A stretch of DNA of 64,000 nucleotides from Minisyncoccota bacterium (GTDB taxonomy: Bacteria; Patescibacteriota; Minisyncoccia; JBAYJV01), in NCBI GenBank assembly GCA_041664925.1, contig JBAYJV010000002.1:136302-200301 (forward strand), read 5' to 3'. Positions 1,138-47,172 of the stretch are shown here, in pieces (the stretch's first letter is position 1; each line of letters opens with the position of its first letter). The position numbers and the translations under genes were made by a program. A model generated the notes under the pieces. It was not told the origin of the DNA. It made no database searches and was given only the letters and a program-made list of their open reading frames with translations.

Positions 1138-1154
1138 TTACATTATATCACAAC

Positions 1155-1262
1155 ATCCCGCACCAGAATAAATACGGTGCGGGATTATTAATTGCGTAAT
1201 TTCTTGCTCTGCTCGAAAACGCAATCAATAAAAAAGACGGGCTCCAGCGCTGTGGAGCCCGC
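1155..1262 (-). repeat. Composite structured element, copy 1 of 4: intrinsic terminator hairpin + 'TTATTGATTGCGT...ACGCAATCAATAA' hairpin + 'CCCGCACC..GGTGCGGG' hairpin
   Basis: Copies at 1155-1262, 1731-1833, 9688-9804 and 10648-10817. On the minus strand the GC hairpin is followed by a T-run. Copy 3 changes gcg/cgc to ctg/cag in the second hairpin, which preserves pairing. Confidence 0.7.
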
Positions 1263-1598
1263 TTACTGCCTTGCCAAGCTGTAGAAGATGCCGATAGAAG
1301 ACTTGGCACCCGGCGCGAGTTGAAATTGCTCGCTACCGCCCACTCAAGCGCAGTGGTCTACTAACTTGGCGGTGAGTCTGCAGCCTTCGCCACGACGGGG
1401 GAGTGTCCCTTATTCCGGCGAGAACTGTGTCAGCCGATTGATGAGTCAATAGACCCGTGCGATCGCTTACTTTTAGTACCCACGGCGATCACCAGTGCTG
1501 ACGGCGCTGCAGACCATTGATAGAGAGGCGGTGTAAGTACAACCAGTACCGTTGCGAGCGTGCACATAGCAGACCACACCGCCTCCCAAATCACATCA
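1232..1598 (-). ncRNA. GC-rich structured ncRNA candidate A (~365 nt), family unassigned
   Basis: Minus-strand -35 TTGACA (1628-1633) and -10 TATAAT (1606-1611) with a 16-nt spacer. No ORF of 60 aa or more. GC-rich in an AT-rich background. Long internal helices such as gaggcggtgt...acaccgcctc. Ends at a terminator hairpin plus T-run near 1235-1260. Confidence 0.5.
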
Positions 1599-1730
1599 TA
1601 CTCCCATTATACTCCTTTTAATTTATTTGTCAAGAGATATGGTAAATAAACTCAAAAATATTAAGTAATCCTCCTTCGCTAATCTGTTTACTGATAGATG
1701 TTTCGAGTTTATTATTATATCATAACAACA

Positions 1731-1833
1731 TCCCGCACCAGAATAAATACGGTGCGGGATTATTGATTGCGTAATTCTCGCAAACTCGAAAACGCAATCA
1801 ATAAAAAAACAGGCTTCAGCTATCTGAAACCTG
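1731..1833 (-). repeat. Composite structured element, copy 2 of 4
   Basis: Same three-hairpin architecture as 1155-1262, immediately 3' of candidate ncRNA B. Confidence 0.7.
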
Positions 1834-2005
1834 TGACTTCCAGCAGGAAGGGGTAGAGGCATAGTCATGTCTGTTCGTCCCAAGAGAGTTGACACCTCTT
1901 TTGTCGCTCTCGGAATACGCGTGCACGGAACGCGGAGAAGAGCGATTGACTACCCCTTCCTTGTCTTTTGCGGTTAGCGGTTGGCTTTATCCAGTCGCTT
2001 TATGT
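1806..2005 (-). ncRNA. GC-rich structured ncRNA candidate B (~200 nt), family unassigned
   Basis: Minus-strand -35 TTGACA (2035-2040), 16-nt spacer, -10 TAAAAT (2013-2018). An 11-bp closing helix GGAAGGGGTAG/CTACCCCTTCC encloses about 110 nt. Terminator plus T-run at about 1806-1830. ORF-track hits here (1623..1895, 1889..2098) have no RBS and cross repeats. Confidence 0.45.
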
Positions 2006-2159
2006 AATAAGCATTTTAGCAAACCCAAAAACTTTGTCAAGAGCTCTAAGAAAAAATGCCAATATTTGCGAATAAGAAATGCAAATTATCGCGAATAACT
2101 AGTAAAATCTTTGGAATTCTTCTCTCGCCTTCGGCGGATCAAAATGAAACTATAAAATA

Positions 2160-2707: not shown

Positions 2708-4723
2708 CTAAAAAGTGTAAGTTTTGTAGTCTAAAGTGCCAAGCTTAAGCTCGCTAATCGCTTGATTCAAGATTTGATAATAGAGATTGATGCCAACCTT
2801 GTTGATTGCGCCTGATTGTTCACGCCCTAAAAGATTTCCCGCGCCCCTGATTTCCAAATCTTTGGCCGCCAATTGATAACCGGCTCCCAGATAAGAATAT
2901 CTTTCAAGCGCAGATAATCTTTCTTTTGCAATCGGCGTTAAGCTGTGGTGCGGATAAAGAAAATAGGCATAAGATTGGCGTTCACCGCGCCCAACCCGAC
3001 CACGAATCTGATGCGCTTGCGCCAAACCAAGCCGTGTTGCGTCTTCCACAATCAAAGTATTTACATTCTTTAAATCAAGCCCATTTTCAATAATAGAAGT
3101 GGCGATCAAAACATCGAATTCGCCCTTTCTAAAATTATGAATAGTATCAACCAAGTATTTTTCGCTCATCCTTCCATGAAGTGAGGCAAATCTCAATCCA
3201 GGGAGAAGTTTTTTGAGTTTTTGCTCGGTCGCTGAAAGCGTGCCAATGCGATTATGCAAATAATAAACCTGACCATGACGCAATATTTCTCTTTGAATAA
3301 CTTGCTTGACTAGGCCAGCATCAAAAAGCGAAACAGAAGTTTTAATCGGAAGTTTATAGGTCGGAGGTGTAGTAATCAAGCTGATATCTTTTAAATTAGA
3401 AAGAGCCATGTGAAGGGTGCGCGGGATCGGTGTCGCTGATAAGCTTAAAATATCAACATTCTCTCTCATTTCTTTGAGTTTTTCCTTCTGCTTGACGCCG
3501 AATCTTTGCTCTTCATCTATAATTAATAATCCCAAATCTCTAAAACAGATATCCTTAGAAAAAAGCCGATGAGTGCCGATTAGAATATCTACTTTTCCTT
3601 CTTTTAATTCATGTAAAATTTGTTTTTGTTCAGCCTTTGAAATAAGACGCGTTAAAAGCCGAACATTGATAGGAAATTGCCCTAATCTTTCCTTGAAAGT
3701 TGAATAGTGTTGATCTGCTAAAATTGTCGTTGGCGAAATCAAACAAACTTGTCTTTTATTCAAGGCTATTTTAAAAGCAGTTCTGATGGCGATTTCTGTT
3801 TTTCCGAAACCGACATCTCCGCAAATTAATCGATCCATCGGTCTTTCCCGAGACAAATCTTTGATGATTTCTGTCCAAGTTTGTTTTTGATCTTTTGTTA
3901 ATTCATAATCAAAGCTTGCTGATAACTGATCCTCGAATTCTGACTCCCCCTGATATGGTAATCTTTGCGAGATTTCTCTTTTTGCATAAAGGCGCAACAA
4001 TTCTTCAGCTAATTTAAGCGCATCCTCTTTAACCTTTCTCTTGGTTTTTTCCCAGATATTTCCCCCTAAACGCGTAAGTCTTGGCTGAACAAAACCAAGG
4101 TAAGGAGAAAGTTTACTTTCTAATCCCTCTGGTACTAACAACATATCATTACAGGCATATTCCAATTCATAATATTTTCTATCTTTTCGAATAATTACAC
4201 CCTTGAATCGCCCGACGCCATGATCAAGATGGACAACGAAATCACCCGAAACTAAATTTAGAATCGCTTCTTTGGGTACCTTAAATTTTTCTTCAATATT
4301 AATAACTCTCAGTTCTTTTTCAGTAAGACGATATATCTTTTCAATGGTATTGCCTAAAAATTCAATTCTGATAGGAAAATCAAGATTAATCGGGTAGATA
4401 TCAATAATTTCCCCTCTATGAGCATATTCTCCAGGAATATCGACAGTTCTGGCTTTATCATAATTCAAATCATCTAGTTGTTTTAAAAGCTCAAAGGGAT
4501 TAATGTGTTGTTCTTGTTCTATTGCAAGAGAAAATCTCTGCCAAAAGAAATTGAAAGCGCGAGCCTCTTTTATCTTAATTTGGTTATCTTGGAACCATTT
4601 TTTGAGTTTATCAATTTCTGCTCGATCAAAAACAGCCTTGGCTTTATCCCAAGCCAGGCCTAACGCTTCGTTAAAAAGTTCTGCTTTTTTCGCGAGAATA
4701 ATTATTGGCGAAATAGATTGCAT
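2708..4723 (-). CDS. mfd: Transcription-repair coupling factor, short form (CarD/TRCF RNAP-interaction domain + SF2 helicase + TRG motif; lacks UvrB-homology N-terminus and D7)
   Basis: 'GDFVVHLDHGVGRFKG' CarD-like motif; helicase motifs 'GDVGFGKTEIA', 'DEEQRFGV', 'SATPIPRT'; TRG motif 'LGAGYQLAAKDLEIRGAGNLLG'; only 671 aa. Confidence 0.8.
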   Translation of the reverse strand: MQSISPIIILAKKAELFNEALGLAWDKAKAVFDRAEIDKLKKWFQDNQIKIKEARAFNFFWQRFSLAIEQEQHINPFELLKQLDDLNYDKARTVDIPGEYAHRGEIIDIYPINLDFPIRIEFLGNTIEKIYRLTEKELRVINIEEKFKVPKEAILNLVSGDFVVHLDHGVGRFKGVIIRKDRKYYELEYACNDMLLVPEGLESKLSPYLGFVQPRLTRLGGNIWEKTKRKVKEDALKLAEELLRLYAKREISQRLPYQGESEFEDQLSASFDYELTKDQKQTWTEIIKDLSRERPMDRLICGDVGFGKTEIAIRTAFKIALNKRQVCLISPTTILADQHYSTFKERLGQFPINVRLLTRLISKAEQKQILHELKEGKVDILIGTHRLFSKDICFRDLGLLIIDEEQRFGVKQKEKLKEMRENVDILSLSATPIPRTLHMALSNLKDISLITTPPTYKLPIKTSVSLFDAGLVKQVIQREILRHGQVYYLHNRIGTLSATEQKLKKLLPGLRFASLHGRMSEKYLVDTIHNFRKGEFDVLIATSIIENGLDLKNVNTLIVEDATRLGLAQAHQIRGRVGRGERQSYAYFLYPHHSLTPIAKERLSALERYSYLGAGYQLAAKDLEIRGAGNLLGREQSGAINKVGINLYYQILNQAISELKLGTLDYKTYTF

Positions 4724-4910: not shown

Positions 4911-5120
4911 CTATTAAAATTCTTGACAAAACTATAATAAAGGAGTATAATGGATAATAGATAGTAAGAATTTCTTTTTCTGATCTTACCTATGAGTGCT
5001 GATGCAGAAAATCCCTCCTATTTCTGCTAGGCTGTGAAGTTTAGGGATTAGTGCAACTGCGCTGATTTCTAACGCTCGTAGGTGAGATTAGGAAAGGAAA
5101 TCATCCAAGGAGGAAAGACT

Positions 5121-5267
5121 ATGAAGTGGAATCCATACGCAAACCAGATTTCCTGGCAAGCACGGCTCGCAAAGGAAACAGCCAATGAGGTATTCTGGAC
5201 ATACCTAGCCGTCTTTGCCGTAGCAGGTTCTCTGATGTTTGTACTTAGCCTCCTACTCGGAGCCTAA
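5121..5267 (+). CDS. 48-aa single-TM small protein behind a ~150-nt structured GC-rich leader
   Basis: Promoter TTGACA-17-TATAAT at about 4928-4957. RBS aaggagg then ATG at 5121. Terminator 'agagcggtctctaagagagaggccgcgcttttttt' downstream. Confidence 0.45.
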   Translation: MKWNPYANQISWQARLAKETANEVFWTYLAVFAVAGSLMFVLSLLLGA

Positions 5268-5315
5268 ACTAGCAAGACGAAAGAGCGGTCTCTAAGAGAG
5301 AGGCCGCGCTTTTTT

Positions 5316-5897
5316 TTAAAATGCAGTTTCTATAAATGAAATTGCATTTTTCTTTATGCTGATTAATTCTTTCTCTTCTTTCTGGTTAAATCTATCCAAT
5401 ACATAATTTTGAGTAATTTCTTTGTTTTTCTCTCCAGAGTCTTCATTCCAAATGCCAACTCTTAAGCGGTTAAAATCTTTTGTGCCCAAATGTTCTATAA
5501 TTGATTCAACGCCATGATGTCCGGCTGCTCCCTGGCCAAGAGAAATTTTTATTTTTCCAAAAACAATATCAATATCATCGTGAATTACCCAAATATTTTG
5601 CGGAATAATGCCGTAATAGTCTTTTATGAGTCTTAGAGCATAACCAGATTCATTCATATAAATTAGTGACTTTGCCAAAATAACTTCTTTTTGATTAATA
5701 TTTGTTTCTGCGATCTCGCTTTGAAATTTCTTTTTTTCGTCAAAATTACCGCCATGTTTTTTTAGTAATTCATCAAGAACCATTCTGCCAATATTATGTC
5801 TCGTGAGCTCATATTTTTCACCAGGATTTCCTAATCCGAAAATGAGAATTTTGTCCGATGTTTTTCTTTTAAAGAGTTTCATAAATTTCTTTGACAT
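5316..5897 (-). CDS. pth: Peptidyl-tRNA hydrolase
   Basis: 'ILIFGLGNPGEKYELTRHNIGRMVLDEL' N-terminal Pth signature with conserved His. Confidence 0.85.
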   Translation of the reverse strand: MSKKFMKLFKRKTSDKILIFGLGNPGEKYELTRHNIGRMVLDELLKKHGGNFDEKKKFQSEIAETNINQKEVILAKSLIYMNESGYALRLIKDYYGIIPQNIWVIHDDIDIVFGKIKISLGQGAAGHHGVESIIEHLGTKDFNRLRVGIWNEDSGEKNKEITQNYVLDRFNQKEEKELISIKKNAISFIETAF

Positions 5898-6873
5898 ATT
5901 GTTTTATTTGCGTATAATTATTAAGCCCTTGCGAAGGTGTTAAAACAAACATTCTGCCTTGGGAAGTTGAAATATAAGATTCGTCCAATAAAAGCGGATC
6001 TTTTATTGTCAATCTATAAGCTTTAGAAGATGAAATATCTAAATCCTTAGCGATTTCCCAAAACGACTTTAGCTCGCTAATAGAAATATCTGTTTCGATG
6101 TGTTCCTTAAAATTATCATAAAGTTTCATCGCCATATTAAAATTCTGAAATTGATTTTGGTTCTCTATTTTATTTCTCAGAGCTGCTAAAACCTGTTGTT
6201 GCCTCGTCATACGTCCAAAATCTCCTTCTTCATCATAACGCGTCCTGACATATTTTAGCAATATTTCGCCGTCAAGATGACGCCAGCCTTTTTCCAAATA
6301 AAATGGATCATAGCTGTAATTGGGGCCGGGAAAAAGAGGATCTTTAATATCTTCTTTTACTGAAACATTCACTCCGCCAACATATTCGGAAATTTCTTTT
6401 AAAAGCTCCAAATCAACCACCACCGAATAATGGATATCTTGCCCCGTAATCGCAGATACTGTCTTTTTTATATCATTTGTGCTTATTCCCATCGCGTAAA
6501 AAGAATTAATTTTTTGATTATAACTGCGATTAGGCACTAAAACATAGAGATCTCTTGGAATTGAAAGTAAGACAACTTGATTTTTACGAAATGATGCGAC
6601 AATGATTGTGTCTGTAAGATTAGGAGCGGGGTTGCCTTTTCCCGGTTTTCCTAGAACAAGAACATTTGTCCAGCCATTGTCATCGACAAGCAAATTCTTA
6701 GAGGAAGAAAAAGTGAGCTCGAAAATGCGCCCAAGATTTAAAAATCCCTTTGTAAAAGAATTGGCCGTATCAAAGCCTCTGTTTTGAGGAATATAGATAA
6801 CCAAAAAGACAAGAAAGATAAAAACAACAACTAATGCAAGATTTTTAATAAATTCCTTAATTTTCTGGGGCAT
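5869..6873 (-). CDS. LytR-CpsA-Psr (LCP) family cell-envelope phosphotransferase
   Basis: N-terminal TM helix, then 'NVLVLGKPG...TDTIIVASF...LLSIPRDLYV'; LCP fold pattern. Confidence 0.75.
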   Translation of the reverse strand: MPQKIKEFIKNLALVVVFIFLVFLVIYIPQNRGFDTANSFTKGFLNLGRIFELTFSSSKNLLVDDNGWTNVLVLGKPGKGNPAPNLTDTIIVASFRKNQVVLLSIPRDLYVLVPNRSYNQKINSFYAMGISTNDIKKTVSAITGQDIHYSVVVDLELLKEISEYVGGVNVSVKEDIKDPLFPGPNYSYDPFYLEKGWRHLDGEILLKYVRTRYDEEGDFGRMTRQQQVLAALRNKIENQNQFQNFNMAMKLYDNFKEHIETDISISELKSFWEIAKDLDISSSKAYRLTIKDPLLLDESYISTSQGRMFVLTPSQGLNNYTQIKQYVKEIYETL

Positions 6874-9687: not shown

Positions 9688-9804
9688 CCCTCCTTCGCCA
9701 TAGTCTGCCTGTCGGCAGACAGGGCTACGGACGGGTTATTGATTCTGTAGTCTCTCGTAAACTCAAGAACAGAATCAATAAAAAAGCGGAGATCGTATCT
9801 CCGC
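9688..9804 (-). repeat. Composite structured element, copy 3 of 4 (covarying second hairpin)
   Basis: Terminator gcggagatacgatctccgc + T-run, then 'ttattgattctgt...acagaatcaataa' with compensatory substitutions relative to the other copies. Confidence 0.7.
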
Positions 9805-10479: not shown

Positions 10480-10647
10480 TCTTCCTCCCTTAGAGATTTT
10501 TAGTAAACTTTCGTGAACTTAAAAGCTCCTTGCCCTGCGTTTATCGAAGGGTTAGGTCCTGAGCTTGTCGAAGGACTACATTCATATAATTTTGAAGAAC
10601 TACTCTATATTACATACTTTTTAAATTTTGTCAATAAATATAACAAT

Positions 10648-10817
10648 ACCCCGCACCAGAATAAATACGGTGCGGGGTTATTGACTGTGTAATCTTCGTT
10701 TTCTCAGAAAATACTTAAGGTAATCCTTCGACTTCGCTCAGGATATTGATTGCGTACTCCTTCATAAATTCAGGAACGCAATCAATAAAAATGAGGGCGG
10801 TTTCGTTACCGCCCTCA
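10648..10817 (-). repeat. Composite structured element, copy 4 of 4 (with internal partial duplication)
   Basis: Terminator gagggcggtaacgaaaccgccctc + T-run directly 3' of the GC-rich def; attgattgcgt hairpin; ccccgcacc hairpin; inserted degenerate half-copy 'ttattgactgtgtaat'. Confidence 0.7.
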
Positions 10818-11255
10818 CTACGCTCCGACCATTCTCTCGATGAACAGGATGCCATCGAGATGGTCAACTTCGTGCTGGACAACTCGCGCCATCCAGCCAT
10901 TAAACTTTCCCACTTGTCTCTTGCCATTCTCATCAAAGAAGCCCAGCAGAACTTCTACCGACCTCCTGACGAGTCCGTATTGTCCGGGGAAGCTTAGACA
11001 TCCTTCCTCGGAACATTTTACCTGAAGCGACTTTCTCACGATCTGAGGATTGGTCAAAATGGTTACCCGACCTTCTGCGTCCTTCACGGCGAACACCCTC
11101 AGATTGACACCAATCTGGGGCGCAGCCAACCCTACGCCAGTTTCCGACCCAAGAAGATCTTCCTTTAACTCTCCGACTAGCTCTCGGAAAGCCATCGCCT
11201 TGAAATCCTCTACGGGCAATGACTTTTGCTTAAGCACATCGTTCGGATAAAGCAG
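10818..11255 (-). CDS. def: Peptide deformylase (GC-rich paralog; probable TTG start after RBS ggaggtg)
   Basis: 'GLAAPQIGVNLRVFAV', 'EGCLSFPG', 'QHEVDHLDGILF' metal-binding motifs; GC content far above neighbours; promoter motif 'ataatatgcTATAATg'. Confidence 0.8.
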   Translation of the reverse strand: MLYPNDVLKQKSLPVEDFKAMAFRELVGELKEDLLGSETGVGLAAPQIGVNLRVFAVKDAEGRVTILTNPQIVRKSLQVKCSEEGCLSFPGQYGLVRRSVEVLLGFFDENGKRQVGKFNGWMARVVQHEVDHLDGILFIERMVGA

Positions 11256-11377
11256 GATTCCGGACAACCCCAACCACCTCCATTCTTACTATCATTATAG
11301 CATATTATTAATAAAAAATCAAGCTTTTTCCAAAAAAAATACAGCTAATCGCTGTATAATAAGATTTTTTTATTTAT

Positions 11378-11824
11378 TTACTTGATTAATTTATCTACAT
11401 ACAATATTCCATTCAAATGATCGATCTCATGCTGAAAGGCTTGAGCAATAAGGCCTTTAACAGTGGTTTTGTGTTTTTTGCCGGTTTCATCATAATATTT
11501 CATAACAACCTTGCTCGATCTTTCCATTTCATCAAATTCTCCGGGAACGCTTAAACATCCTTCATTGAATAAGTTTTTTTTATTAGAAAAATGGGTGATT
11601 TCAGGATTGATAAAAATCTTAATTTCACCTTTCATATTTAAAACAAAAACCCGAAGATTAACACCAATCTGAGGAGCAGCTAGTCCCAACCCTTCTTTTG
11701 TTACTAAAAGAGTGTCTATTAAATCTTTAATTGTTTGTTTTGTTTCTTTGGACTCAAAATCAACAACAACTTCAGATCGGGTTCTTAATATTTTACTTGG
11801 TTCACGCAAAATGCTTTTGATCAT
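11378..11824 (-). CDS. def: Peptide deformylase (AT-rich, native-looking paralog)
   Basis: 'GLAAPQIGVNLRVFVL', 'EGCLSVPG', 'QHEIDHLNGILY'. Confidence 0.85.
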   Translation of the reverse strand: MIKSILREPSKILRTRSEVVVDFESKETKQTIKDLIDTLLVTKEGLGLAAPQIGVNLRVFVLNMKGEIKIFINPEITHFSNKKNLFNEGCLSVPGEFDEMERSSKVVMKYYDETGKKHKTTVKGLIAQAFQHEIDHLNGILYVDKLIK

Positions 11825-26345: not shown

Positions 26346-27215
26346 GTGAATGTAATGAAAAATCAATTTGAGATCGCCGGCGGAACTGTTCTGGGAACCA
26401 ATCATCAAAGATGCGGAAAAAATAATCAGGACGCTTTTTTATGGCAAATCACAGAAGATGCGGTTGTCATCGTTGTTGCTGATGGCTGCGGCTCTAAGCC
26501 ACATAGCGAAGTAGGAGCGAAAATCGGCAGCCAATTGATAGTTAATGAAATCATTACCAATCTATATGAGAATGGATTCCTAGATGCGCTTGGAAATGAT
26601 ATCGCCACAAATAACCTCTGGTCTTTAATAGAAAGAAATGTGCTGGAAAAAATCTACGCTCTGGCTCATTCAATGGACCGAGATCTTCATGCTCAGGCAA
26701 TTGCCGATTATTTTCTCTTCACAATGATCGGTGCCATCGCCACAAAAAATAAAACCATAATTTTTTCTCTTGGTGACGGCGCCTACATCATTAACGGAGA
26801 AGTAACACAAATCGGTCCCTTTCCTGACAATGCTCCTCCTTATCTCGCTTATCAATTACTGGACCCCCAGACTCTTGATATCGATCAAAGACTGCTTCAC
26901 ATCAAGACAAAGCGCATCATCGAAACACCTGAAATCAAAAATTTGCTCATCGGCACTGACGGCGTCTGCGATTTAATCAGACAGTCAGAAAAACAAATTC
27001 CCGGCAGCCAAGACCAGGTTGGTCAGATAAATTGGTTCTGGGAAAACGACAAATGTTTTTCCAATCCGGATATGATCAGACGGCGCTTGTCGATGATGAA
27101 CCGCCAAAGCTTAAGAATTGATGAAAAAAAACATCTCGCCAAAGAATCGGGAATTCTGCCAGACGACACAACTCTTGTGGTAATGAGGCAAAAAAAAGGA
27201 GGCGACAAGATGTGA
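26346..27215 (+). CDS. PP2C-family serine/threonine phosphatase-like protein
   Basis: 'GTNHQRCGKNNQDAF', 'VVADGCGS' metal-binding Asp motifs, C-terminal 'IGTDGV'; stop overlaps the kinase start by 4 nt. Confidence 0.7.
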   Translation: MNVMKNQFEIAGGTVLGTNHQRCGKNNQDAFLWQITEDAVVIVVADGCGSKPHSEVGAKIGSQLIVNEIITNLYENGFLDALGNDIATNNLWSLIERNVLEKIYALAHSMDRDLHAQAIADYFLFTMIGAIATKNKTIIFSLGDGAYIINGEVTQIGPFPDNAPPYLAYQLLDPQTLDIDQRLLHIKTKRIIETPEIKNLLIGTDGVCDLIRQSEKQIPGSQDQVGQINWFWENDKCFSNPDMIRRRLSMMNRQSLRIDEKKHLAKESGILPDDTTLVVMRQKKGGDKM

Positions 27216-29077
27216 ATGAAATCTATGTCAACGGACAACGCGTCCGCCTCAGTCAAAATAAACTCATCGGCCAGGGCGGCGAAGCGGAAATCTATGATTT
27301 GGGCAATGGCAAGGCGCTTAAGGTTTTCAAAACACCGGACCATCCCGACTTCCAGGGAAATCCTGTAGAACAGGCAATTGCCAGAGAGCGGATTTTGGAA
27401 CACCAACAAAAACTCAAGACATTTCCCAAAAATCTGCCCCACCGCATCATTGCACCCGAAGATCTGGCGTTTGATAGCACAACAAGGCAAATTGCCGGTT
27501 ATGTTATGCGCTATCTCAAACAAACAGAAGTGCTGATAAAGTATAGCGACCGCAGTTTCCGCGAACAAAGAATTTCCCAGGAAACGGTGACTAAGATTTT
27601 CCTTGATCTTTATAAAACAGTTTCGGAAGCCCATCGGACCGGCGTCGTCATCGGTGATTTCAATGATTTGAATGTCCTGGTCTCAGGGAATGAAGCCTAT
27701 CTGGTTGATGTTGACAGCTATCAGTTTGGGAAGTTCCTCTGCAAGCTCTTTACTGAGCGCTTTGTTGATCCCTTGCTTTGCGATCCAAAAGAAACAAGGC
27801 CAGTACTTGCTTTCCCTCATAACCAAAATTCCGATTGGTACGCTTTCGCTATCATGCTGATGCAATGTCTGCTTTATGTGGGACCGTACGGAGGAATTTA
27901 TAGGCCAAAAAAAGCTCCCCAGAAAATCGTAACGCAGGATTCAAGACCGCTTAAAAGGATTACGGTTTTTCATCCTGATGTCCAGTACCCAAAACCGGCT
28001 ATCCGCCTTGATGTTTTGCCGGATGAAATGCTTGAATATCTGCGCCTTACTTTCGAAAAAGACCAAAGGCGCGTTTTCCCAGAAAACCTGATTCAGAGTC
28101 TATGCTGGAAAAAATGCCTGGTCTGCGGCACAGAACATGCGCGCAATTCCTGTCCCCAGTGTTTCAAAGCTATTGTCAAAGAAATTGTCCATTTCAAAGG
28201 CCATGTTTCAGCAAGAGATATTTTCAGGACTAAGGGTATTATTTTAAAAGCAGGTCTTAACGGAAAAAACTTCCTTTGGCTCTATTACGAAGATGGTTGC
28301 TTTAAAAGAGAAAATGGCGCGATTGTCGCCCGAGAAAAACTCGATCCGCGAATGCGTTTCGGAATCAGTGACGGATCAACCCTGATCGCCAAAGGTGATG
28401 AACTTTATTTATTTAGGACAAACCAGGCGCCTGTCAAAACCAACATCGGAACTTTCCAAAACTTGCCAATGTTTGACGCCAATGAAAATCATATTTACTG
28501 GATAGAAAATAATCAACTGTTCCGTGATGGCCCATTTGGTAAGGAAGCAATCGGTAAAATTCTTGAAAACCAAACGATTTTCTGGGTTGGTCCAGAATTC
28601 GGATTCGGTTTCTATCGCGCAGGAAATCTAACCATCGCCTTTGTCTTCGACAAAGAAAAACTGGGCATCAATGACCAGGTAAAACTTCCACCCATTAAAG
28701 GACAATTAATTAGTTGCGAATGCTTCTTCGATAAGGAGCGCTGCTGGCTTTTGATCTCAACTCAGCAAAAGGGAAAAATCATTAACGATTGCGTGGTTAT
28801 TTTGAAAAATGGCGCTGTAGAATGCGTGGCGCAAGCAACTCAAGATGATGGATCCTGGCTGGGAACACTCAAGGGAAAATGCGCTTTCCGACAGTTCCTT
28901 TTCGCTCCGACTGATGAAGGTATTGTAAGAACGGAAATTGAACAGGGACAAATCGCCAAGATAAATCATTTTCCTGACACAGAGCCTTTTGTGGATAAAG
29001 ATTCACTCCTTTTTACGGACCAGAACGGCATTTATGCTGTTAACCGCCAGGATATCAAGCTCCTAAGAATCGATTAG
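27212..29077 (+). CDS. Atypical protein kinase (Gly-rich loop GQGGEAEIY, VAIK-like ALKVFK, GDFNDLN catalytic loop, DVDS) + Cys4 zinc ribbon + beta-rich C-terminal domain
   Basis: Kinase-fold motifs; 'CLVCGTEHARNSCPQCF' zinc ribbon; translationally coupled to the PP2C gene. Confidence 0.65.
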   Translation: MNEIYVNGQRVRLSQNKLIGQGGEAEIYDLGNGKALKVFKTPDHPDFQGNPVEQAIARERILEHQQKLKTFPKNLPHRIIAPEDLAFDSTTRQIAGYVMRYLKQTEVLIKYSDRSFREQRISQETVTKIFLDLYKTVSEAHRTGVVIGDFNDLNVLVSGNEAYLVDVDSYQFGKFLCKLFTERFVDPLLCDPKETRPVLAFPHNQNSDWYAFAIMLMQCLLYVGPYGGIYRPKKAPQKIVTQDSRPLKRITVFHPDVQYPKPAIRLDVLPDEMLEYLRLTFEKDQRRVFPENLIQSLCWKKCLVCGTEHARNSCPQCFKAIVKEIVHFKGHVSARDIFRTKGIILKAGLNGKNFLWLYYEDGCFKRENGAIVAREKLDPRMRFGISDGSTLIAKGDELYLFRTNQAPVKTNIGTFQNLPMFDANENHIYWIENNQLFRDGPFGKEAIGKILENQTIFWVGPEFGFGFYRAGNLTIAFVFDKEKLGINDQVKLPPIKGQLISCECFFDKERCWLLISTQQKGKIINDCVVILKNGAVECVAQATQDDGSWLGTLKGKCAFRQFLFAPTDEGIVRTEIEQGQIAKINHFPDTEPFVDKDSLLFTDQNGIYAVNRQDIKLLRID

Positions 29078-29155
29078 AAAAGGAGGCAAGTAAAAAACAA
29101 AAATGGCCGCCCGGAAAATCGAACCGCAGCAAAAAGGATCAAAGGAGGATCCGCA

Positions 29156-30217
29156 ATGAGCACGAAGAAAACAAAGGTCGCCCAACTCCCTCTTCCCAAG
29201 CACTATGATCCGCAGAATGCCACGAATGCCGATTATAGCGTTCGCGACATAACCCTGCTTCAAACCTGCGCTGAAGCCTGGCGCAAAACTCACAAAATTC
29301 ATCCTGTAAACGATGATGCTAAAAATGTTCAGATGCTTATCATTGATGACCAGGTTGATTTCAGCTTCCCGACAGGGTCCCTTTATGTGGCCGGTCGCTC
29401 AGGCACCGGCGCCATGGATGCCCATCAGAGACTTGTTGAATTCCTTTACCGATACCTCGACTTGATTTCCGGGATTACCTGCACAATGGATACTCACCTG
29501 CCTTATCAGATTTTCTATCCCAGCGCCCACCTTTTGCCGGACGGAAGCCACCCTCAACCCAACACCGTCATTTCTGCCAAGGATTATCGCGACGGAAAGT
29601 ACGAACCTAATCCGGCAATGGCTGCTCAGATTGGTTTGAGTGTGCTTGACCTAAGACGGCAATTCATCCATTACTGCGAACAATTGGAGAAAACCGGCAA
29701 ATACATGCTTTATCTCTGGCCCTATCACTGCATGCTCGGCTCTCCGGGACATCGCTTAGCTGGTGTTGTTGATGAAGTCCGCCTCTTCCATAGTTTTGCG
29801 AGAGGCGCAGCCAACATCCCGGCGATTAAGGGTGGCAATCCTTTGACCGAGCACTACTCGATTTTCTCACCAGAAGTGACAACTCTTTGGGACGGAAGAC
29901 CTATTCCTCAGGCGCAGAAAAATGAGAGACTGATCAAAACTCTCTTTGAAGCAGATGTGGTTATTATGGCGGGACTCGCGTCCAGCCACTGCGTCAAGGA
30001 AAGCATCGCCGATTTCCTGAAAGAAATCAAAGCCCAGGACGAATCCCTGGTAAAGAAAGTTTACATTCTTGAAGACTGCACTGCTGCAGTTGTCATTCCT
30101 TCGGGACCTGATTTTACCGACGATGCGAATAAGGCTTTGAAGGAATTTGAAAACGCCGGAATGCACGTTGTCAGATCAACTGACCTGATCGAATCCTGGC
30201 CTGAAATCAGGCTTTAG
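29156..30217 (+). CDS. pncA: Nicotinamidase-like cysteine hydrolase (PncA/isochorismatase family, long 353-aa form) - paralog 1
   Basis: 'MLIIDDQVDF' (Asp), 'LWPYHCMLGSPGH' (PncA WPxHC signature), 'KGGNPLTEHYSIF', 'IMAGLASSHCVKES' (catalytic Cys). Confidence 0.75.
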   Translation: MSTKKTKVAQLPLPKHYDPQNATNADYSVRDITLLQTCAEAWRKTHKIHPVNDDAKNVQMLIIDDQVDFSFPTGSLYVAGRSGTGAMDAHQRLVEFLYRYLDLISGITCTMDTHLPYQIFYPSAHLLPDGSHPQPNTVISAKDYRDGKYEPNPAMAAQIGLSVLDLRRQFIHYCEQLEKTGKYMLYLWPYHCMLGSPGHRLAGVVDEVRLFHSFARGAANIPAIKGGNPLTEHYSIFSPEVTTLWDGRPIPQAQKNERLIKTLFEADVVIMAGLASSHCVKESIADFLKEIKAQDESLVKKVYILEDCTAAVVIPSGPDFTDDANKALKEFENAGMHVVRSTDLIESWPEIRL

Positions 30218-30288
30218 GAACCAAAAAAAACGGAGGCAGGCAAGAAAGCTTGTCTGCCTCCACTCTCTCAAAAGCAAAGGAGGCTTCT

Positions 30289-31083
30289 GTGAGCGATAGC
30301 GCAAAAAAACTGATTCAGTCGGCTGCGCAGGAAGGCACAATTTCTCCTGCCACAGCAAAAGCTCTGACAGTTCACGACGTAGGTATGGAAATCGAAGCGG
30401 CTTTGGGAGTCAATGTTGACGACGTGAAGTCAACCGAAGTTGTTCTTGTTACCTTCCTGATTGACGATTCGGGCTCCATTGAAGGAGCGGGAAATACCGC
30501 AAATGTCATGCTTGGACACAATCTTGTTCTCGATGCTCTGATGAAAACCAAGCAAAAAAACAACATTCTCGTTCATACAAGAACCCTGAACGGCACGATT
30601 ATAACGCCTTATTGTCTGTTAGAAAATGCTGTTCAGCTTGATGCTTCAAACTATTTCCCTGTTGGCGGCACTCCGCTTTACGATGAGACCGTCGTAATTC
30701 TTGGAACAGTTATTGCTAAAACGGAACAGTTTTCCAAAAACGCCGTTCCAGTAAGAACAGTAACAATCATTATCACCGACAGCTGCGATCTTCATTCTCG
30801 CAAATACCGACGCCCTCAGGATGTGGCACCCATTGTCCAGGATATGTTTAAAACAGAACAGCACATTATTGCCGGTATGGGCATTGATGACCATCAAACC
30901 GATTTCAAAAAAGTTTTCGGCGATATGGGAATTCTGCCCCAGTGGATTCTGACGCCGGACAATGACCCTCACGAAATCCGCAAGGCTTTCCTGATGGTTT
31001 CCCAGTCAGCTACCAAAATCAGCCAGAACGCCCAGGGTTTCGCTCAAGCCAGCCTCGGAGGTTTCGGTAAAACAGCTCCTTAA
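30289..31083 (+). CDS. von Willebrand factor A (vWA) domain protein, TerY-like
   Basis: MIDAS 'LIDDSGSI' (DxSxS), 'GGTPLY' Thr motif, 'ITDSCD'. GTG start after RBS aaggagg; the ORF track begins upstream at a TTG at 30250. Confidence 0.7.
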   Translation: MSDSAKKLIQSAAQEGTISPATAKALTVHDVGMEIEAALGVNVDDVKSTEVVLVTFLIDDSGSIEGAGNTANVMLGHNLVLDALMKTKQKNNILVHTRTLNGTIITPYCLLENAVQLDASNYFPVGGTPLYDETVVILGTVIAKTEQFSKNAVPVRTVTIIITDSCDLHSRKYRRPQDVAPIVQDMFKTEQHIIAGMGIDDHQTDFKKVFGDMGILPQWILTPDNDPHEIRKAFLMVSQSATKISQNAQGFAQASLGGFGKTAP

Positions 31084-32407: not shown

Positions 32408-32554
32408 TAGTTCTTTAAAAAATAAATATAAGGCTCTAATACAGGCTTATGCGAAACAAAGCGTAGCCCCAGTACCAGAATTCGCTTCGCTCATTCGGTA
32501 CAGGGCGTAAGAGTTTATAAGTTTCGCTTTGCTCAACAACAAACACTAACGGAG
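32408..32554 (+). promoter_or_regulatory. Conserved structured leader, copy a (…taaggctctaatacaNgcttatgcgaaacaaagNgtagccccNgtacc agaattcgcttcgctcattc ggtacagggcgtaag…ctaacggaggtg)
   Basis: About 90% identical over roughly 110 nt to copies at 35510-35662 (+) and 47385-47510 (-); hairpin cccNgtacc/ggtacaggg; ends in a shared RBS. Confidence 0.6.
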
Positions 32555-32560
32555 GTGCGC

Positions 32561-35397: not shown

Positions 35398-35462
35398 GAG
35401 GCGACTTAAGTCGTCGCCTCCTTTCTTGGATGACTTAGAAAACTAAGTCATCGAAGTAAGTC
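35398..35462 (+). repeat. Identical ~65-nt junction module: terminator gaggcgacttaagtcgtcgcctc + hairpin ATGACTTAGaaaaCTAAGTCAT + cgaagtaag
   Basis: Exact second copy at 36828-36892; related modules at 32336-32400 and 34452-34520, all followed by AGTTCTTTAA. Confidence 0.7.
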
Positions 35463-35509
35463 CTCCGATAGATTCGATTTACTCACTACAAGCTAAACTC
35501 AGGACAAGT

Positions 35510-35662
35510 AGTTCTTTAACAATATAATATAAGGCTCTAATACAAGTTTATGCGAAACAAAGTGTAGCCCCGGTACCAGAATTCGCTTCGCTCATTCGGT
35601 ACAGGGCGTAAGAGCTTCTAAATTTCGTTTCACTCAACAAGAGTCTCTAACGGAGGTGTAAC
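35510..35662 (+). promoter_or_regulatory. Conserved structured leader, copy b
   Basis: See 32408-32554. Confidence 0.6.
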
Positions 35663-36827: not shown

Positions 36828-36892
36828 CGCTTGAGGCGACTTAAGTCGTCGCCTCCTTTCTTGGATGACTTAGAAAACTAAGTCATCGAAGT
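36828..36892 (+). repeat. Junction module, exact copy of 35398-35462
   Basis: Identical sequence. Confidence 0.7.
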
Positions 36893-37016
36893 AAGAAGTT
36901 CTTTAACAAATAATCCTCCTTCGCCCCGGCTTGCCGGGGCTTCGGAAGGATGTAATATTTTCTAAATCTCGTTTCTCTCGGTAAGAAAATCTAACAAACA
37001 CTAACGGAGGTGTAAG

Positions 37017-43254: not shown

Positions 43255-43569
43255 TTACCGCACTTCGACTTCTTCCTTGAGAAGCGTGGCATAACCAAGC
43301 TTCTCGAGAAGTCTCTCGATCTTCGCGCGCGGACCCTTGATCGTTCCACACGAACTGACGTGATCGCCATAGTCGGTGGTGACAATTTCGGCTCCGACCG
43401 TCTTGTGTCCTTCGTCAATCTTCCAGGAAATGGAAGCAACAGGCGACCAACAAGCACAATTCACGCCGTCGGCACCAAGAATGTCGACATGTTGCGAAGC
43501 TCCCGTGTTTCCGATCTGGCGAATTCCGACAACATCTTCCACAACAACAACCGGTTCTTGCTTTTCCAT
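43255..43569 (-). CDS. GC-rich ~104-aa hypothetical protein (HVDILGADGVNCAC motif)
   Basis: Promoter 'TTGACAtttaaaatataatatgcTATAATg' with the same -10 context as the GC-rich def; RBS gagggagg; strong terminator 'aggggttcggcagatgatgtacgccggacccct' + T8. Overlapping ORFs 43068..43457 and 43165..43596 rejected. Confidence 0.5.
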   Translation of the reverse strand: MEKQEPVVVVEDVVGIRQIGNTGASQHVDILGADGVNCACWSPVASISWKIDEGHKTVGAEIVTTDYGDHVSSCGTIKGPRAKIERLLEKLGYATLLKEEVEVR

Positions 43570-43690
43570 AATGCCTCCCTCTTTTTCGTTTCTTAATGCC
43601 ATTATAGCATATTATATTTTAAATGTCAACAAGAAATACTGTATTGTAAATAAAAAAACCTTTAAAAAGAGGTTTTTCATAATTTATTCT

Positions 43691-45641: not shown

Positions 45642-45865
45642 CTTTCCTCCTTTAGAGATTTTTAGCAAACTTTTGTGAGCTTAAAAGCTCTTAGTCCCGG
45701 CTTGCCGGGACTACATCCATATTATTTTTTAAGAACTATTTACATATTACTATTAAGAATAAAAAATGTCAATAAAAAAAAGCGGCGCTTGTCTTCGCGC
45801 CGCATGAAATTCTCTCTTTAGAAAATGTCCAATTCTTTAACGAGATGAGACTAGAAAATATTAAG

Positions 45866-46315
45866 TCATCCTGAAACTTTTGGTCTAGGCATACACAACA
45901 TTATTGCTTTCGCAATACTATCTTGACATGTGCGATCTTCCGCTGCAGCTCGCGCGATATTCCAGAAAACTCTTGCTTGTTCAGCATCAAGTTCTAGATA
46001 AGGAATGTCAAAATATTCTGAACTTACTTCAAATGCCTCTCTGTCTTCTGTCTTTTCTCTTAATGTTACAACCTGATAAACAACACATTCTTCAGTCACA
46101 AACTCGATTTCGTCATGTTCCTCAGTCCAGATAAATCCCTTGACTACAAATGTTTGCCCTTCTAGATTGTCGACTCCTAATTCCTGCGCTATTGATTCTA
46201 GTACTTCACTTAACTCTTCTTGTAGTAGGTCTTTCGGTTTTACACCAGAAAATTTAATCCTTTGCCCAACTCGAACCGGTTCATAAATCCTAACCTTCTT
46301 AGTCGATTCGCTCAT
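45866..46315 (-). CDS. Hypothetical acidic protein
   Basis: 149-aa ORF with RBS. Confidence 0.45.
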   Translation of the reverse strand: MSESTKKVRIYEPVRVGQRIKFSGVKPKDLLQEELSEVLESIAQELGVDNLEGQTFVVKGFIWTEEHDEIEFVTEECVVYQVVTLREKTEDREAFEVSSEYFDIPYLELDAEQARVFWNIARAAAEDRTCQDSIAKAIMLCMPRPKVSG

Positions 46316-46334
46316 CTTGCATCCTCCTTATGCT

Positions 46335-46679
46335 CTACTCAATGTACTCTCTGAAAATCTCGCGAACCTTTGCCGGGCATTCTTCCGGAAGCCATTCCTG
46401 CACGCTCAAAAGTTCATCATCAATCATTTCAAGAAGAAGTTGGTCATATTCAACTTCGCCAGGTCTCTTAGATTCATAGCCAGTATGAGTCTGTAAATCA
46501 AAGAAACGAAAAGCCTTGATAGGTTTGTTTTCTTTTCGTGCAATCGCCCTTACAATATCTTCGGCGCAATTGATAGTGGATAAGCTTTCTCTGCCAGTTG
46601 CGGTAAAGACGCAAATCCCTTCATCAAGAATCACATAAGCTATTCCCTTATGGTGCACATCGATGATTTTCTTTTTCAT
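46335..46679 (-). CDS. Hypothetical protein
   Basis: 114-aa ORF, RBS aggaggatg. Confidence 0.45.
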   Translation of the reverse strand: MKKKIIDVHHKGIAYVILDEGICVFTATGRESLSTINCAEDIVRAIARKENKPIKAFRFFDLQTHTGYESKRPGEVEYDQLLLEMIDDELLSVQEWLPEECPAKVREIFREYIE

Positions 46680-46680
46680 T

Positions 46681-47172
46681 TTATCTCCCTTCCTTAGGAC
46701 ACGGACAAAGAGCTTTAGAAGGAGAAATAATGACCAGAACCAATAAGCGGATAAGCATTATGATACACCAGCAAACTGTTGTAAAAATATTCCAGATAAT
46801 CTTAAACCACCAACCGCCAATCGCCATGAAGAAGAGATATCGATTAATTTTTTCTTTTTGTTCTTTGTAGTATCTGCTTGATTCGTTAACTGGTAATGGC
46901 ACCAAAAAACTATCAAACCCATCGACTAACCTACTTATTGGCCATAAAAAACAGTATAAGAAACGATGCCATCTTTTTTCTCTGTCGTAATTCCAATAGA
47001 GCTTGAGGTTTAGCTTCCCAACGCAGTAACCAATATTCAGATAGATAATCGACAACGCCGGAATACTTACCTGAAGCGGGATTGCTTTCCAAAAAACAAT
47101 CACCATTGAAACTACGAGTGCCATTACCGCCAGCGCCACCCACTGCCACACCTTCTTTTTCATCCTGTGCAC
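46681..47172 (-). CDS. Integral membrane protein, unknown
   Basis: Multiple TM helices; ~340-nt composite leader upstream (47173-47515). Confidence 0.5.
   Translation of the reverse strand: MHRMKKKVWQWVALAVMALVVSMVIVFWKAIPLQVSIPALSIIYLNIGYCVGKLNLKLYWNYDREKRWHRFLYCFLWPISRLVDGFDSFLVPLPVNESSRYYKEQKEKINRYLFFMAIGGWWFKIIWNIFTTVCWCIIMLIRLLVLVIISPSKALCPCPKEGR

What the first reader, a model, noticed from the sequence alone, without database searches (positions are those of the whole stretch)
1232..1598. ~365-nt GC-rich promoter-to-terminator non-coding transcript (candidate ncRNA A)
There is a perfect minus-strand -35/-10, no ORF, GC content far above the surroundings, extensive helices and a strong terminator. 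I checked by eye for tmRNA signatures (GGGG start, tag reading frame, tRNA-like CCA end) and for the RNase P P4 and CR sequences and found neither. The size excludes 6S and small SRP. It could be a highly divergent member of one of these families, as small-genome lineages often have, or a new RNA.
Basis: seen in the sequence. Interest (0 to 1): 0.6.

Follow-up and report, generated by a model that had tools for sequence, protein, structure and literature searches.

The report
Orphan structured RNA gene, strain-variable cassette
A roughly 370-base, GC-rich, highly folded non-coding RNA gene with its own perfect promoter and terminator sits in a small-genome (CPR/Patescibacteria) bacterium; it matches no known RNA family, only two relatives were found, and close strains lack it at this locus, so it is probably a new accessory RNA whose job is unknown.

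Summary
On the minus strand there is a 12/12 sigma-70 promoter (1633..1606), about 370 nt of 56.7% GC sequence in a 37.7% GC genome with no conserved ORF, and a 10-bp terminator (1262..1237).

No Rfam 15 family matches, even at E<=10, and ARAGORN finds no tmRNA. I found two homologues, both upstream of dus in related Patescibacteria contigs: L001 (about 72-74% identity) and L093 (found by eye, then by a covariance model, 25 bits). All three keep the same promoter, terminator and fold: a 5' hairpin, a multi-helix domain closed by a CUGCAG helix, and a 3' four-way junction.

The RNA is accessory at this locus. Strains with 88-90% identical Dus lack it here, and in the window it lies between about 94-nt direct repeats. 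That argues against RNase P, tmRNA, SRP or 6S.

Covariation support is weak because there are only three sequences, and fold z-scores are not unique to it. My verdict is a real, probably novel, lineage-restricted structured ncRNA of unknown function, most likely trans-acting. It is one of several unannotated RNA cassettes in this clade. Interest is moderate.

The parts
1606..1633 (-). Sigma-70 promoter of RNA A (TTGACA, 16-nt spacer, TATAAT). The block CTCTTGACAAATAAATTAAAAGGAGTATAATGG is kept almost unchanged in the L001 homologue and in a different neighbouring module.
   Evidence: The promoter scores 12/12 in the window, in L001 (4983-5010) and in L093 (2378-2405).
1230..1599 (-). Predicted RNA A transcript, about 370 nt and 56.7% GC, with no conserved ORF.
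1523..1587 (-). P1, the long 5' hairpin (GGGAGGCGGUGU.../...ACACCGCCUCUC).
   Evidence: MFE helices. A long 5' hairpin is present at the same place in L001_A and L093_A, with a different sequence in L093.
1375..1515 (-). D2, the central multi-helix domain. It is closed by GGUCUGCAGC/GCUGCAGACU and contains three inner hairpins.
   Evidence: The closing helix and the inner GUCAGC/GCUGAC helix are kept in L001_A with one C-G to U-A compensatory change. A related CUGCAG-closed domain is present in module Y of L005.
1267..1376 (-). D3, the 3' four-way junction. It has a 13-bp closing stem and hairpins CCACU/AGUGG, CGGUAGCGAG/CUCGCGCCG and GUGCC/GGCAU. This is the most conserved part of the family.
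   Evidence: Covariance model R1 scores 128.6 bits here, 113.4 bits in L001 and 25 bits (E=0.014 in 1 Mb) in L093/L095. No other credible hit appears in the window or in the 95 sources searched (about 1 Mb); one further hit at E=9.3 is noise. In the model alignment, 96.6% of cells are paired.
1229..1262 (-). Intrinsic terminator: a 10-bp stem with 7 GC pairs and a 6-nt loop, followed by a T-run.
   Evidence: It is identical in L001 and similar in L093.
1142..1235 (.). Proximal copy of the roughly 94-nt direct repeat that bounds the A cassette. It holds two hairpins (ATTGATTGCG...CGCAATCAAT and CCCGCACC...GGTGCGGG) and a TGATATAAT extended -10-like box facing dus.
   Evidence: 87 of 100 aligned positions identical to the distal copy. 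Related copies follow other terminators at 9.7 and 10.7 kb.
1714..1808 (.). Distal copy of the same direct repeat, lying between the terminator of RNA B and the promoter of RNA A.
1805..2040 (-). Neighbouring unit B: promoter 2040..2013 (11/12 plus TG), an RNA of about 200 nt, and terminator 1834..1809. It is a separate RNA gene in tandem with A.
   Evidence: Homologues lie in L005 and L091.

Best explanation
RNA A is a real, independently transcribed non-coding RNA gene of a family not described so far. It appears restricted to one Patescibacteria (CPR) lineage.

**How it is made and folds**
- It is made from its own consensus sigma-70 promoter and ends at an intrinsic terminator.
- The roughly 370-nt product folds into three domains: a long 5' hairpin, a central domain closed by a CUGCAG helix, and a 3' four-way junction.
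- The stems CCACUG.../...GUGG and GUGCC/GGCAU in the four-way junction are conserved in sequence and form the core.

**Where it sits**
- It lies on a cassette in a recombination-prone spot upstream of dus and is present in only some strains.
- It is therefore an accessory gene at this locus, not a housekeeping gene.

**Shown versus inferred**
- Shown: the expression signals, the lack of coding capacity, the shared architecture in three homologues, and the presence/absence pattern.
- Inferred, most likely: it acts in trans as a folded RNA, with the conserved junction as a binding platform for a protein or another RNA, rather than as a leader or an antisense regulator. Its cellular role is unknown.
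For: - **Expression signals:** perfect promoter and strong terminator in the window, and in both homologues.
- **Non-coding:** there is no conserved ORF in any of six frames, and the indels are not in multiples of three. Pfam finds nothing significant on the frame pieces: one chance-level hit at E=0.043, below the curated cut-off.
- **Shared fold, window and L001:** independent MFE folds share 86 base pairs of 118 and 110, although the 5' half is only about 55% identical. There are 2 double and 6 single compatible changes.
- **Shared fold, third homologue:** L093, from a genome whose Dus is only 64% identical, has the same order of elements: P1, a CUGCAG-type closed domain, a four-way junction, and a terminator.
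- **Covariance model:** a model of the junction retrieves L093 at 25 bits and no other credible hit (one at E=9.3, noise) in about 1 Mb of related CPR DNA. 96.6% of cells pair, against 32-47% when the partners are slid.
- **Strand:** several conserved G-U pairs and 14 G-U pairs in the MFE fit the minus strand only. The minus-strand z-score is -4.57, the plus-strand -3.36.
- **Fold stability of the homologue:** z = -5.94 for L001_A.
- **Accessory status:** the spacer holds B+A in the window, X+A' in L001, B'+Y in L005, B'' only in L091, and nothing in L099.
- **Cassette boundaries:** about 94-nt direct repeats flank the cassette.
Against: - Only three distinct sequences are known. Formal covariation is not significant: 2 pairs changed on both sides, and 55 of 500 shuffles do as well.
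- Fold z-scores of this size also occur in a GC-rich coding region (-3.96) and in one of 41 background windows (-5.19).
- There are no expression data.
- The RNA evolves faster than the flanking genes (about 72-74% against 87.5% identity). This could mean weak constraint.
- No partner, target or ligand has been identified. No complementarity above chance was found to the rest of the window.
Confidence: 0.6

Rival explanations
1. It is a selfish or decaying cassette: transcribed but functionless DNA, for example the remnant of a GC-rich foreign gene or a by-product of duplication between repeated promoters and terminators. Its folding would reflect GC content and chance rather than selection.
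For: - Close strains differ in presence or absence, and the cassette is bounded by direct repeats.
- It diverges faster than its neighbours.
- Other GC-rich cassettes with the same 3' repeat are protein genes (def paralogue), and that coding sequence also has a low z-score.
- Covariation is not significant.
Against: - Promoter, terminator and domain order are retained in a genome as distant as 64% Dus identity.
- Helices persist where the sequence has changed.
- No frame piece resembles any protein family.
- Stems in the four-way junction are conserved in sequence in all three members.
Confidence: 0.15
2. It is a base-pairing regulatory sRNA, or the antitoxin of a type I toxin-antitoxin pair, acting through short complementarity to mRNAs elsewhere in the genome.
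For: - It is a stand-alone promoter-to-terminator unit with variable gene content, typical of sRNAs.
- A small hydrophobic protein gene with a long structured leader lies 3.5 kb away.
Against: - About 370 nt with 64% of bases paired is unusually large and folded for a seed-pairing sRNA.
- There is no complementarity above shuffled controls anywhere in the 64-kb window: best hit 24 bits, against a shuffle mean of 24 and maximum of 34.
- The conserved parts are stems, not loops.
Confidence: 0.1
3. It is the RNA partner of a mobile-element or nuclease protein, in the manner of a guide or scaffold such as the omega RNAs of IscB/TnpB, IS110 bridge RNAs or retron ncRNAs. The protein would be encoded nearby in some genomes.
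For: - In L001 and L005 a GIY-YIG nuclease gene follows the RNA modules.
- In L093 an rve-type transposase gene lies immediately upstream.
- The locus is an insertion hot spot.
Against: - No such gene is adjacent in the window.
- The neighbouring protein differs in each genome.
- No reverse transcriptase, TnpB, IscB or IS110 gene was seen among the ORFs scanned up to about 31 kb; ORFs from 31 to 64 kb were not scanned.
- Rfam models of HEARO and related RNAs do not match.
- There are no hits in phage, plasmid or viral collections.
Confidence: 0.07
4. It is a cis-acting leader or attenuator that controls dus by terminator read-through.
For: All three family members lie upstream of dus in the same orientation.
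Against: - dus is expressed without it in L091, L099 and others.
- A complete GIY-YIG gene separates it from dus in L001.
- About 255 nt follow the terminator, with two further hairpins and a TGATATAAT promoter-like box that is conserved upstream of dus in strains lacking A.
- Unit B has the same layout and is followed by another RNA, not a gene.
Confidence: 0.04
5. It is a very divergent housekeeping RNA (RNase P RNA, tmRNA, SRP RNA or 6S RNA), or a small-protein mRNA.
For: - Its size is close to that of RNase P RNA and tmRNA.
- No canonical copies of those RNAs lie in the 64-kb window, so their presence elsewhere could not be used as an argument.
- A 54-aa ORF exists.
Against: - No Rfam hit at E<=10, and ARAGORN is negative.
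- There is no P4/CR-I sequence, tRNA-like end or tag frame.
- It is absent from the locus in near-identical strains.
- The ORF lacks a correctly spaced SD and is broken in the homologue.
Confidence: 0.03

Closest known systems
Orphan large structured bacterial ncRNAs found as long GC-rich intergenic regions in AT-rich genomes (GC-IGR candidates of the Breaker laboratory; OLE, ROOL, GOLLD and raiA as the best-known large examples)
   Same: - It lies in a long GC-rich intergenic region of a low-GC genome and has a multi-domain fold with its own promoter and terminator.
- It has a patchy phylogenetic distribution and no known function.
- By the criteria in PMC11109978, fewer than five unique representatives would make it a 'low-ranking candidate'.
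   Different: - There is no sequence or structure match to any of those families.
- It is smaller than OLE, ROOL and GOLLD.
- It occurs in Patescibacteria.
- It sits in a repeat-bounded cassette that differs between close strains, next to other unrelated RNA cassettes that share its promoter and terminator.
RNase P RNA and tmRNA (housekeeping RNAs of similar length)
   Same: - Length is about 350-400 nt.
- It is GC-rich relative to a small AT-rich genome.
- It is multi-domain and is a stand-alone gene.
   Different: - No conserved core sequences and no model match.
- Accessory rather than universal at this locus.
Sibling modules in the same locus of related strains: X (L001:4726-4962), Y (L005:5000-5470) and Z (L006:5510-5918)
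   Same: - X and Y have nearly the same promoter block and 5' GGAG.C.GGUGU leader as A, and the same terminator type (CCACAGCGCUGG-like).
- All three occupy the same position between mfd and dus.
- Y shares the CUGCAG-closed domain with A.
   Different: - X, Y and Z share a GUGUCAG...UCGGCGGC motif with a covarying closing stem, which A lacks.
- They lack A's four-way junction; the model gives no hit.

Membership tests
Bacterial RNase P RNA (Rfam RNaseP_bact_a/b) | P4 helix with the conserved CR-I (GAGGAAAGUCC) and CR-V (ACAGAA..GGCUUA) sequences, and a match to the covariance model | tested here: not met
   No hit at gathering score or at E<=10 with permissive filters. The motifs are absent from the sequence.
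Bacterial RNase P RNA | Universal and essential: one copy in every genome of the lineage | tested here: not met
   It is absent from the syntenic locus in L091, L005 and L099. Whole genomes of those strains could not be inspected, so presence elsewhere is not excluded.
tmRNA | tRNA-like domain formed by the 5' and 3' ends with a T-arm, plus a tag reading frame | tested here: not met
   ARAGORN finds only two tRNAs in the window. No Rfam tmRNA model scores at E<=10.
6S RNA / SRP RNA | For 6S, a single extended hairpin with a central bubble, about 180-200 nt. For SRP, domain IV with a GNAR loop and a symmetric loop. In both cases a model match. | tested here: not met
   No model match. The predicted fold has three branched domains and is about 370 nt long.
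OLE, ROOL, GOLLD, HEARO, raiA and other large Rfam ncRNAs; group I and II introns | Match to the family covariance model | tested here: not met
   cmscan of 4227 families finds only five weak hits in the region searched; the four overlapping the RNA or its 3' flank sit on the terminator and flanking hairpins. The homologues in L001, L005 and L006 also give nothing.
Riboswitch or cis-regulatory leader | Located in the 5' UTR of the regulated gene, with the same gene association wherever it occurs and an expression platform overlapping the aptamer | tested here: inconclusive
   It is always upstream of dus in the same orientation. It is separated from dus by a terminator, two hairpins, a promoter-like box and, in L001, a whole gene. 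dus occurs without it.
Guide or scaffold RNAs of mobile elements (omega RNA, bridge RNA, retron ncRNA) | Immediately adjacent to, or overlapping, the cognate TnpB, IscB, IS110 or RT gene | tested here: not met
   No such gene adjoins the element in the window. Elsewhere its neighbours differ: GIY-YIG in L001 and rve in L093.
Protein-coding gene or pseudogene | Conserved reading frame, an SD at proper spacing, or similarity to a protein family | tested here: not met
   Six-frame comparison of the window and L001. No significant Pfam match at E<=1 on the ten longest frame pieces (one chance-level hit at E=0.043, below the curated cut-off) or on the ORFs.
Conserved-structure ncRNA (generic criterion) | Statistically supported covariation in an alignment of diverse homologues | tested here: inconclusive
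   Three sequences only. In D3, 96.6% of cells are paired and 2 pairs changed on both sides, but 55 of 500 shuffles do as well. Independent folds share 86 pairs.

The most novel reading that the evidence does not exclude
A would be one member of a lineage-specific, rapidly diversifying set of modular structured-RNA cassettes: A, B, X, Y and Z, perhaps with the roughly 530-nt unit beyond dus.

Most of these cassettes share promoter, 5' leader and terminator types and exchange internal domains. They are gained and lost by recombination at a hot spot upstream of dus in one Patescibacteria clade.

This turnover pattern resembles that of defence or host-interaction loci. On this reading the RNAs themselves, rather than proteins, would be the variable effectors, for example decoys, RNA-based immunity factors or molecules delivered to the host cell.
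Probability: 0.1. Interest if true: 0.8.

Novelty: new variant of a known kind. Interest (0 to 1): 0.45.

Why it matters
Large structured non-coding RNAs are rare, and each new class has proved to be a ribozyme, a ribonucleoprotein scaffold or a self-assembling particle.

Patescibacteria have tiny genomes, where every retained strongly expressed gene is informative, yet their RNA repertoire beyond rRNA, tRNA and the housekeeping RNAs is essentially unexplored.

This locus shows that one such lineage carries several unannotated, strongly promoted, highly folded RNA genes that differ between close strains. If they are functional, they would be a new layer of accessory-genome content in episymbiotic bacteria.

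If A is only a poorly constrained cassette, the finding still warns that GC-rich, well-folding intergenic segments in these genomes are not automatically functional RNAs.

Tried and rejected
**Known RNA families**
- Rfam at gathering and at E<=10 gave nothing for A, its homologues, unit C or the unit beyond dus.
- ARAGORN found no tmRNA.

**Coding hypotheses**
- ORF listing, six-frame comparison and Pfam on ORFs and frame pieces showed nothing conserved.

**Wider homologue searches**
- An exact 20-mer from the most conserved block returned only the contig already known from JGI metagenome contigs. This search could not have found L093-like relatives, so the family may be larger.
- A Dus-anchored scan of GTDB species genomes found no close relative (best 63%), and blastn or the covariance model found no A-like sequence in its 80 loci.
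- Phage, plasmid and E. coli collections gave no match.
- The viral contig scan gave one chance 17-mer hit in an unrelated sequence and none for a degenerate D3 pattern.

**Other tests**
- The antisense target search within the window found nothing above shuffled controls.
- The fold z-score as proof of function was rejected after the controls.
- The idea that every GC-rich island in the window is an RNA gene was rejected. 10818-11273 is a def paralogue and about 43270-43570 is a small-protein gene.
- The MAFFT alignment of the L093 junction was wrong in the middle. It was replaced by a model-guided alignment.
- Literature searches found no described Patescibacteria RNA of this kind.

Full report
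**1. The observation**

The window is a 37.7% GC bacterial chromosome segment.
- The neighbours of the finding are dus (3-977, minus), a short mfd-like helicase (2708-4723, minus), pth, a LytR-family gene, lepB and hisS.
- Dus homologues place the organism in Patescibacteria/CPR, among Parcubacteria-like lineages.
- The window's own contig is JGI Ga0376277_0000593, 186 kb.

On the minus strand there is a perfect sigma-70 promoter, TTGACA-16-TATAAT, at 1633..1606. A terminator with a 10-bp stem and a T-run lies at 1262..1237.
- The stretch between them is 56.7% GC, against 29-32% in its immediate flanks.
- The longest ORFs are 54 and 53 aa.
- The minus-strand RNA folds to -157.4 kcal/mol with 64% of bases paired, z = -4.57. 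The plus strand gives z = -3.36.

**2. How much of this exceeds chance**

Promoter and terminator matches of this quality are rare: 12/12, in a region where shuffles give about 4 weak hits.

The fold z-score is less special than it looks.
- Across 41 other 367-nt windows the mean z was -0.75 with sd 1.43, and one window reached -5.19.
- The coding region of a GC-rich def paralogue at 10.8-11.3 kb gave -3.96.
- A small-protein gene at 43.2-43.6 kb gave -0.47.

Both of those protein genes have the same kind of strong promoter and terminator and about 50% GC. GC-richness and a good fold do not by themselves identify an RNA gene in this genome.

**3. Not a known family and not coding**

- cmscan against all 4227 Rfam 15 families finds only two tRNAs in the window at gathering score.
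- At E<=10 over 1000-2300 it finds five weak hits; the four that overlap RNA A or its 3' flank sit on the terminator and flanking hairpins.
- ARAGORN finds no tmRNA.
- Six-frame translation of the window copy and of its closest homologue shows no shared open frame. The 54-aa ORF loses its start codon and meets an early stop in the homologue, and the indels are not multiples of three.
- Pfam finds nothing significant on the ORFs or on the ten longest frame pieces: only one chance-level hit at E=0.043, below the curated cut-off.

**4. Homologues**

I used Dus as an anchor to fetch syntenic loci.

*L001.* Three assemblies share one sequence (L001-L003, JGI Ga0247841_10003339; Dus 91% identical). 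They carry a homologue at L001:5016-5362.
- It is about 72-74% identical in DNA, while the flanking genes are 87.5% identical.
- It has the identical promoter block and terminator.
- Its own fold z-score is -5.94.

*L093.* A third, much more distant member was seen by eye in L093:2412-2830 (the same sequence as L095; Dus 64% identical).
- It again has a 12/12 promoter and a strong terminator.
- blastn detected only its terminator.

*Searches that added nothing.*
- An exact 20-mer scan of JGI metagenome contigs returned only the L001 contig.
- The GTDB species set has no close relative of this organism, best 63%.
- Phage, plasmid, E. coli and viral collections gave nothing, apart from one chance 17-mer.

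**5. Shared architecture**

Independent MFE folds of the three RNAs give the same order of elements:
- a long 5' hairpin, P1;
- a central domain D2, closed by a GC-rich helix built on CUGCAG/CUGCAG, or GCAGCGCG/CGCGCUGC in L093, and containing several hairpins;
- a 3' domain D3, a four-way junction with a 13-bp closing stem and three hairpins;
- the terminator.

L093 has an extra domain of about 90 nt before the terminator.

Between the window and L001, 86 base pairs are shared out of 118 and 110, although the 5' half of D2 is only about 55% identical. Two pairs changed on both sides and six changed on one side compatibly. Two inner hairpins are replaced by different sequences that still form hairpins.

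A covariance model of D3, built from the two close sequences, gave these scores:

| Source | Score |
|---|---|
| Window | 128.6 bits |
| L001 | 113.4 bits |
| L093/L095 | 25 bits (E = 0.014) |

It found no other credible hit in about 1 Mb (95 sources) of window and related CPR loci; one further hit at E=9.3 is noise.

On the model-guided alignment, 96.6% of cells form standard pairs, against 32-47% with slid partners. With three sequences only two pairs show double changes, and 55 of 500 shuffles do as well.

Several conserved G-U pairs fit only the minus strand.

The structural evidence is therefore consistent and suggestive, but statistically weak.

**6. Genomic behaviour**

The mfd-dus spacer differs in every strain examined.

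| Strain or locus | Content of the spacer |
|---|---|
| Window | B + A |
| L001 | X + A' + a GIY-YIG gene |
| L005/L004 | B' + Y + GIY-YIG |
| L091 (Dus 90%) | B'' only |
| L006 | a different roughly 400-nt unit, Z |
| L093 | a transposase + the A-like RNA |
| L096 | a transposase-like gene, with mfd absent from this position |
| L099 | mfd directly abuts dus |

In the window the A cassette lies between two direct repeats of about 94 nt, at 1142-1235 and 1714-1808, with 87 of 100 aligned positions identical.
- Each repeat comprises two hairpins and a TGATATAAT box facing dus.
- Recombination between the repeats would give exactly the L091 arrangement.
- Related hairpin repeats follow other terminators at 9.7 and 10.7 kb. 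They look like a general terminator-associated repeat that also serves as a recombination substrate.

Modules X, Y and A share nearly the same promoter block, a GGAG.C.GGUGU 5' leader and the terminator type, but their bodies differ.
- Y shares A's CUGCAG-closed domain.
- X, Y and Z share another motif with a covarying stem.

A is thus an accessory, modular cassette.

**7. What it most likely is and does**

*Shown.* It is a non-coding transcription unit with conserved signals and a conserved domain order in three genomes, present in only some strains at this locus.

*Inferred.* It is a trans-acting folded RNA whose conserved four-way junction is the functional core, probably a binding platform.

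*Against the alternatives.*
- A leader for dus is unlikely. dus occurs without it, and a terminator, two hairpins, a promoter-like box and, in L001, a whole gene intervene.
- Antisense or seed-pairing action is unlikely. The conserved parts are stems, and no complementarity above chance exists in the window.
- Housekeeping RNAs are unlikely on model, motif and distribution grounds.
- A functionless cassette remains a serious rival, because of the fast divergence and weak covariation.
- A link to mobile-element proteins is possible, since GIY-YIG and rve genes are neighbours in two genomes. It is not consistent, however, and no such gene adjoins A in the window.

**8. Comparison with the known, and novelty**

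The nearest analogues are the orphan structured RNAs found as long GC-rich intergenic regions in AT-rich genomes.
- Under the criteria of PMC11109978, a motif with fewer than five distinct representatives is a low-ranking candidate.
- A is not a member of any Rfam family.
- What is unusual is the setting. Several different strongly promoted, folded RNA cassettes share expression signals and turn over between close strains of a small-genome bacterium.

I rate it a new variant of a known kind (an orphan structured sRNA gene). Interest is moderate at 0.45. There is roughly a 10% chance that it belongs to a truly new type of variable RNA-effector locus.

**9. Limits**

- Only three sequences are known, and there are no expression data.
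- The complete genomes of the compared strains were not available.
- The DNA searches of the large collections were limited to one exact pattern each.

Noticed in passing
window 4923-5310 (+ strand): **Unit C.** A 12/12 promoter at 4923-4951 drives a structured RNA of about 130 nt (4958-5100). In the window this is followed by an RBS, a 61-aa hydrophobic sORF (5082-5267) and a terminator (5285-5307).
- The 130-nt RNA is conserved downstream of pth in related CPR loci. A 9-sequence alignment (window plus 8 loci) gives 46 predicted pairs, 15 with compensatory changes.
- Its invariant loops include an anti-SD-like AAUCCCUCC.
- Several relatives have no sORF after it.
- No Rfam family matches.
- It is better supported as a novel ncRNA than finding A.
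   Followed up: partly
window 1805-2040 (- strand): **RNA B.** Promoter 2040..2013 (11/12 with TG), an RNA of about 200 nt (z = -3.96) and terminator 1834..1809, in tandem with A.
- Homologues at 81-88% identity lie in L005 and L091.
- The helices are conserved and the variation sits in the apical loops.
- No Rfam match.
   Followed up: partly
L001:4726-4962, L005:5000-5470, L006:5510-5918: **Modules X, Y and Z.** These sit at the same locus in related strains. They share a motif (stem, then GUGUCAGUA ... UCGGCGGC, then stem) whose closing stem covaries: GACAGAG/CUCUGUC, GACAGGG/CCCUGUC and GGCAAGG/CCUUGCC. No Rfam match.
   Followed up: partly
L090:5378-5953 (same contig, just left of window position 1, downstream of dus and a DUF4282 gene): **Another promoter-to-terminator unit.** It runs from TTGACA-16-TAGAAT to a 10-bp terminator, about 530 nt at about 49% GC. 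No gene is called and there is no Rfam hit at E<=1 on the body. It is a further candidate large ncRNA.
   Followed up: partly
window 1142-1235, 1714-1808, 9725-9789, 10640-10796: **Terminator-associated repeat family.** Directly after the T-run comes a hairpin ATTGATTSNGT...ACNSAATCAAT, then a second GC-rich hairpin (CCCGCACC...GGTGCGGG or a variant).
- All four copies lie on minus-strand units within the first 11 kb of the window; no further copies were seen elsewhere in it.
- They are also present upstream of dus in L093-L095.
   Followed up: partly
window 10818-11273 and 11378-11824 (- strand): **Two adjacent peptide deformylase genes.** The distal one is 32% GC and has a Pfam hit. The proximal one is 51% GC, has its own consensus promoter, terminator and the repeat module, and its mRNA folds with z = -3.96. 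It looks like an acquired or specially expressed paralogue.
   Followed up: partly
L001:5380-5990 and L005:4400-4500, 5500-5990: **GIY-YIG genes flanked by hairpin repeats.** Small GIY-YIG nuclease genes (about 100 aa) are flanked by copies of a hairpin repeat, TGTCATTCTGA...GAAGAATCTC...GGGATCCTT...TCAGGATGACA. Only one exact copy of the 11-mer is in the window, at 49736.
   Followed up: no
window 29801-30167 (- strand) and ORFs 27212-31083: **Strongest fold z-score in the background sample.** The value of -5.19 lies antisense to a 353-aa ORF. Three consecutive ORFs (621, 353 and 277 aa; 44-49% GC) have no Pfam match.
   Followed up: no
window 32408-32557 / 35509-35658, 35398-35460 / 36833-36895, and 45726-51315: **Other repeat families.** There is a 150-nt direct repeat at 88% identity, spaced 3.1 kb apart. 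A 63-nt perfect repeat is spaced 1.4 kb apart. Four copies of a promoter-like 47-mer ending in GTCAA (TTGAC on the other strand) also occur.
   Followed up: no
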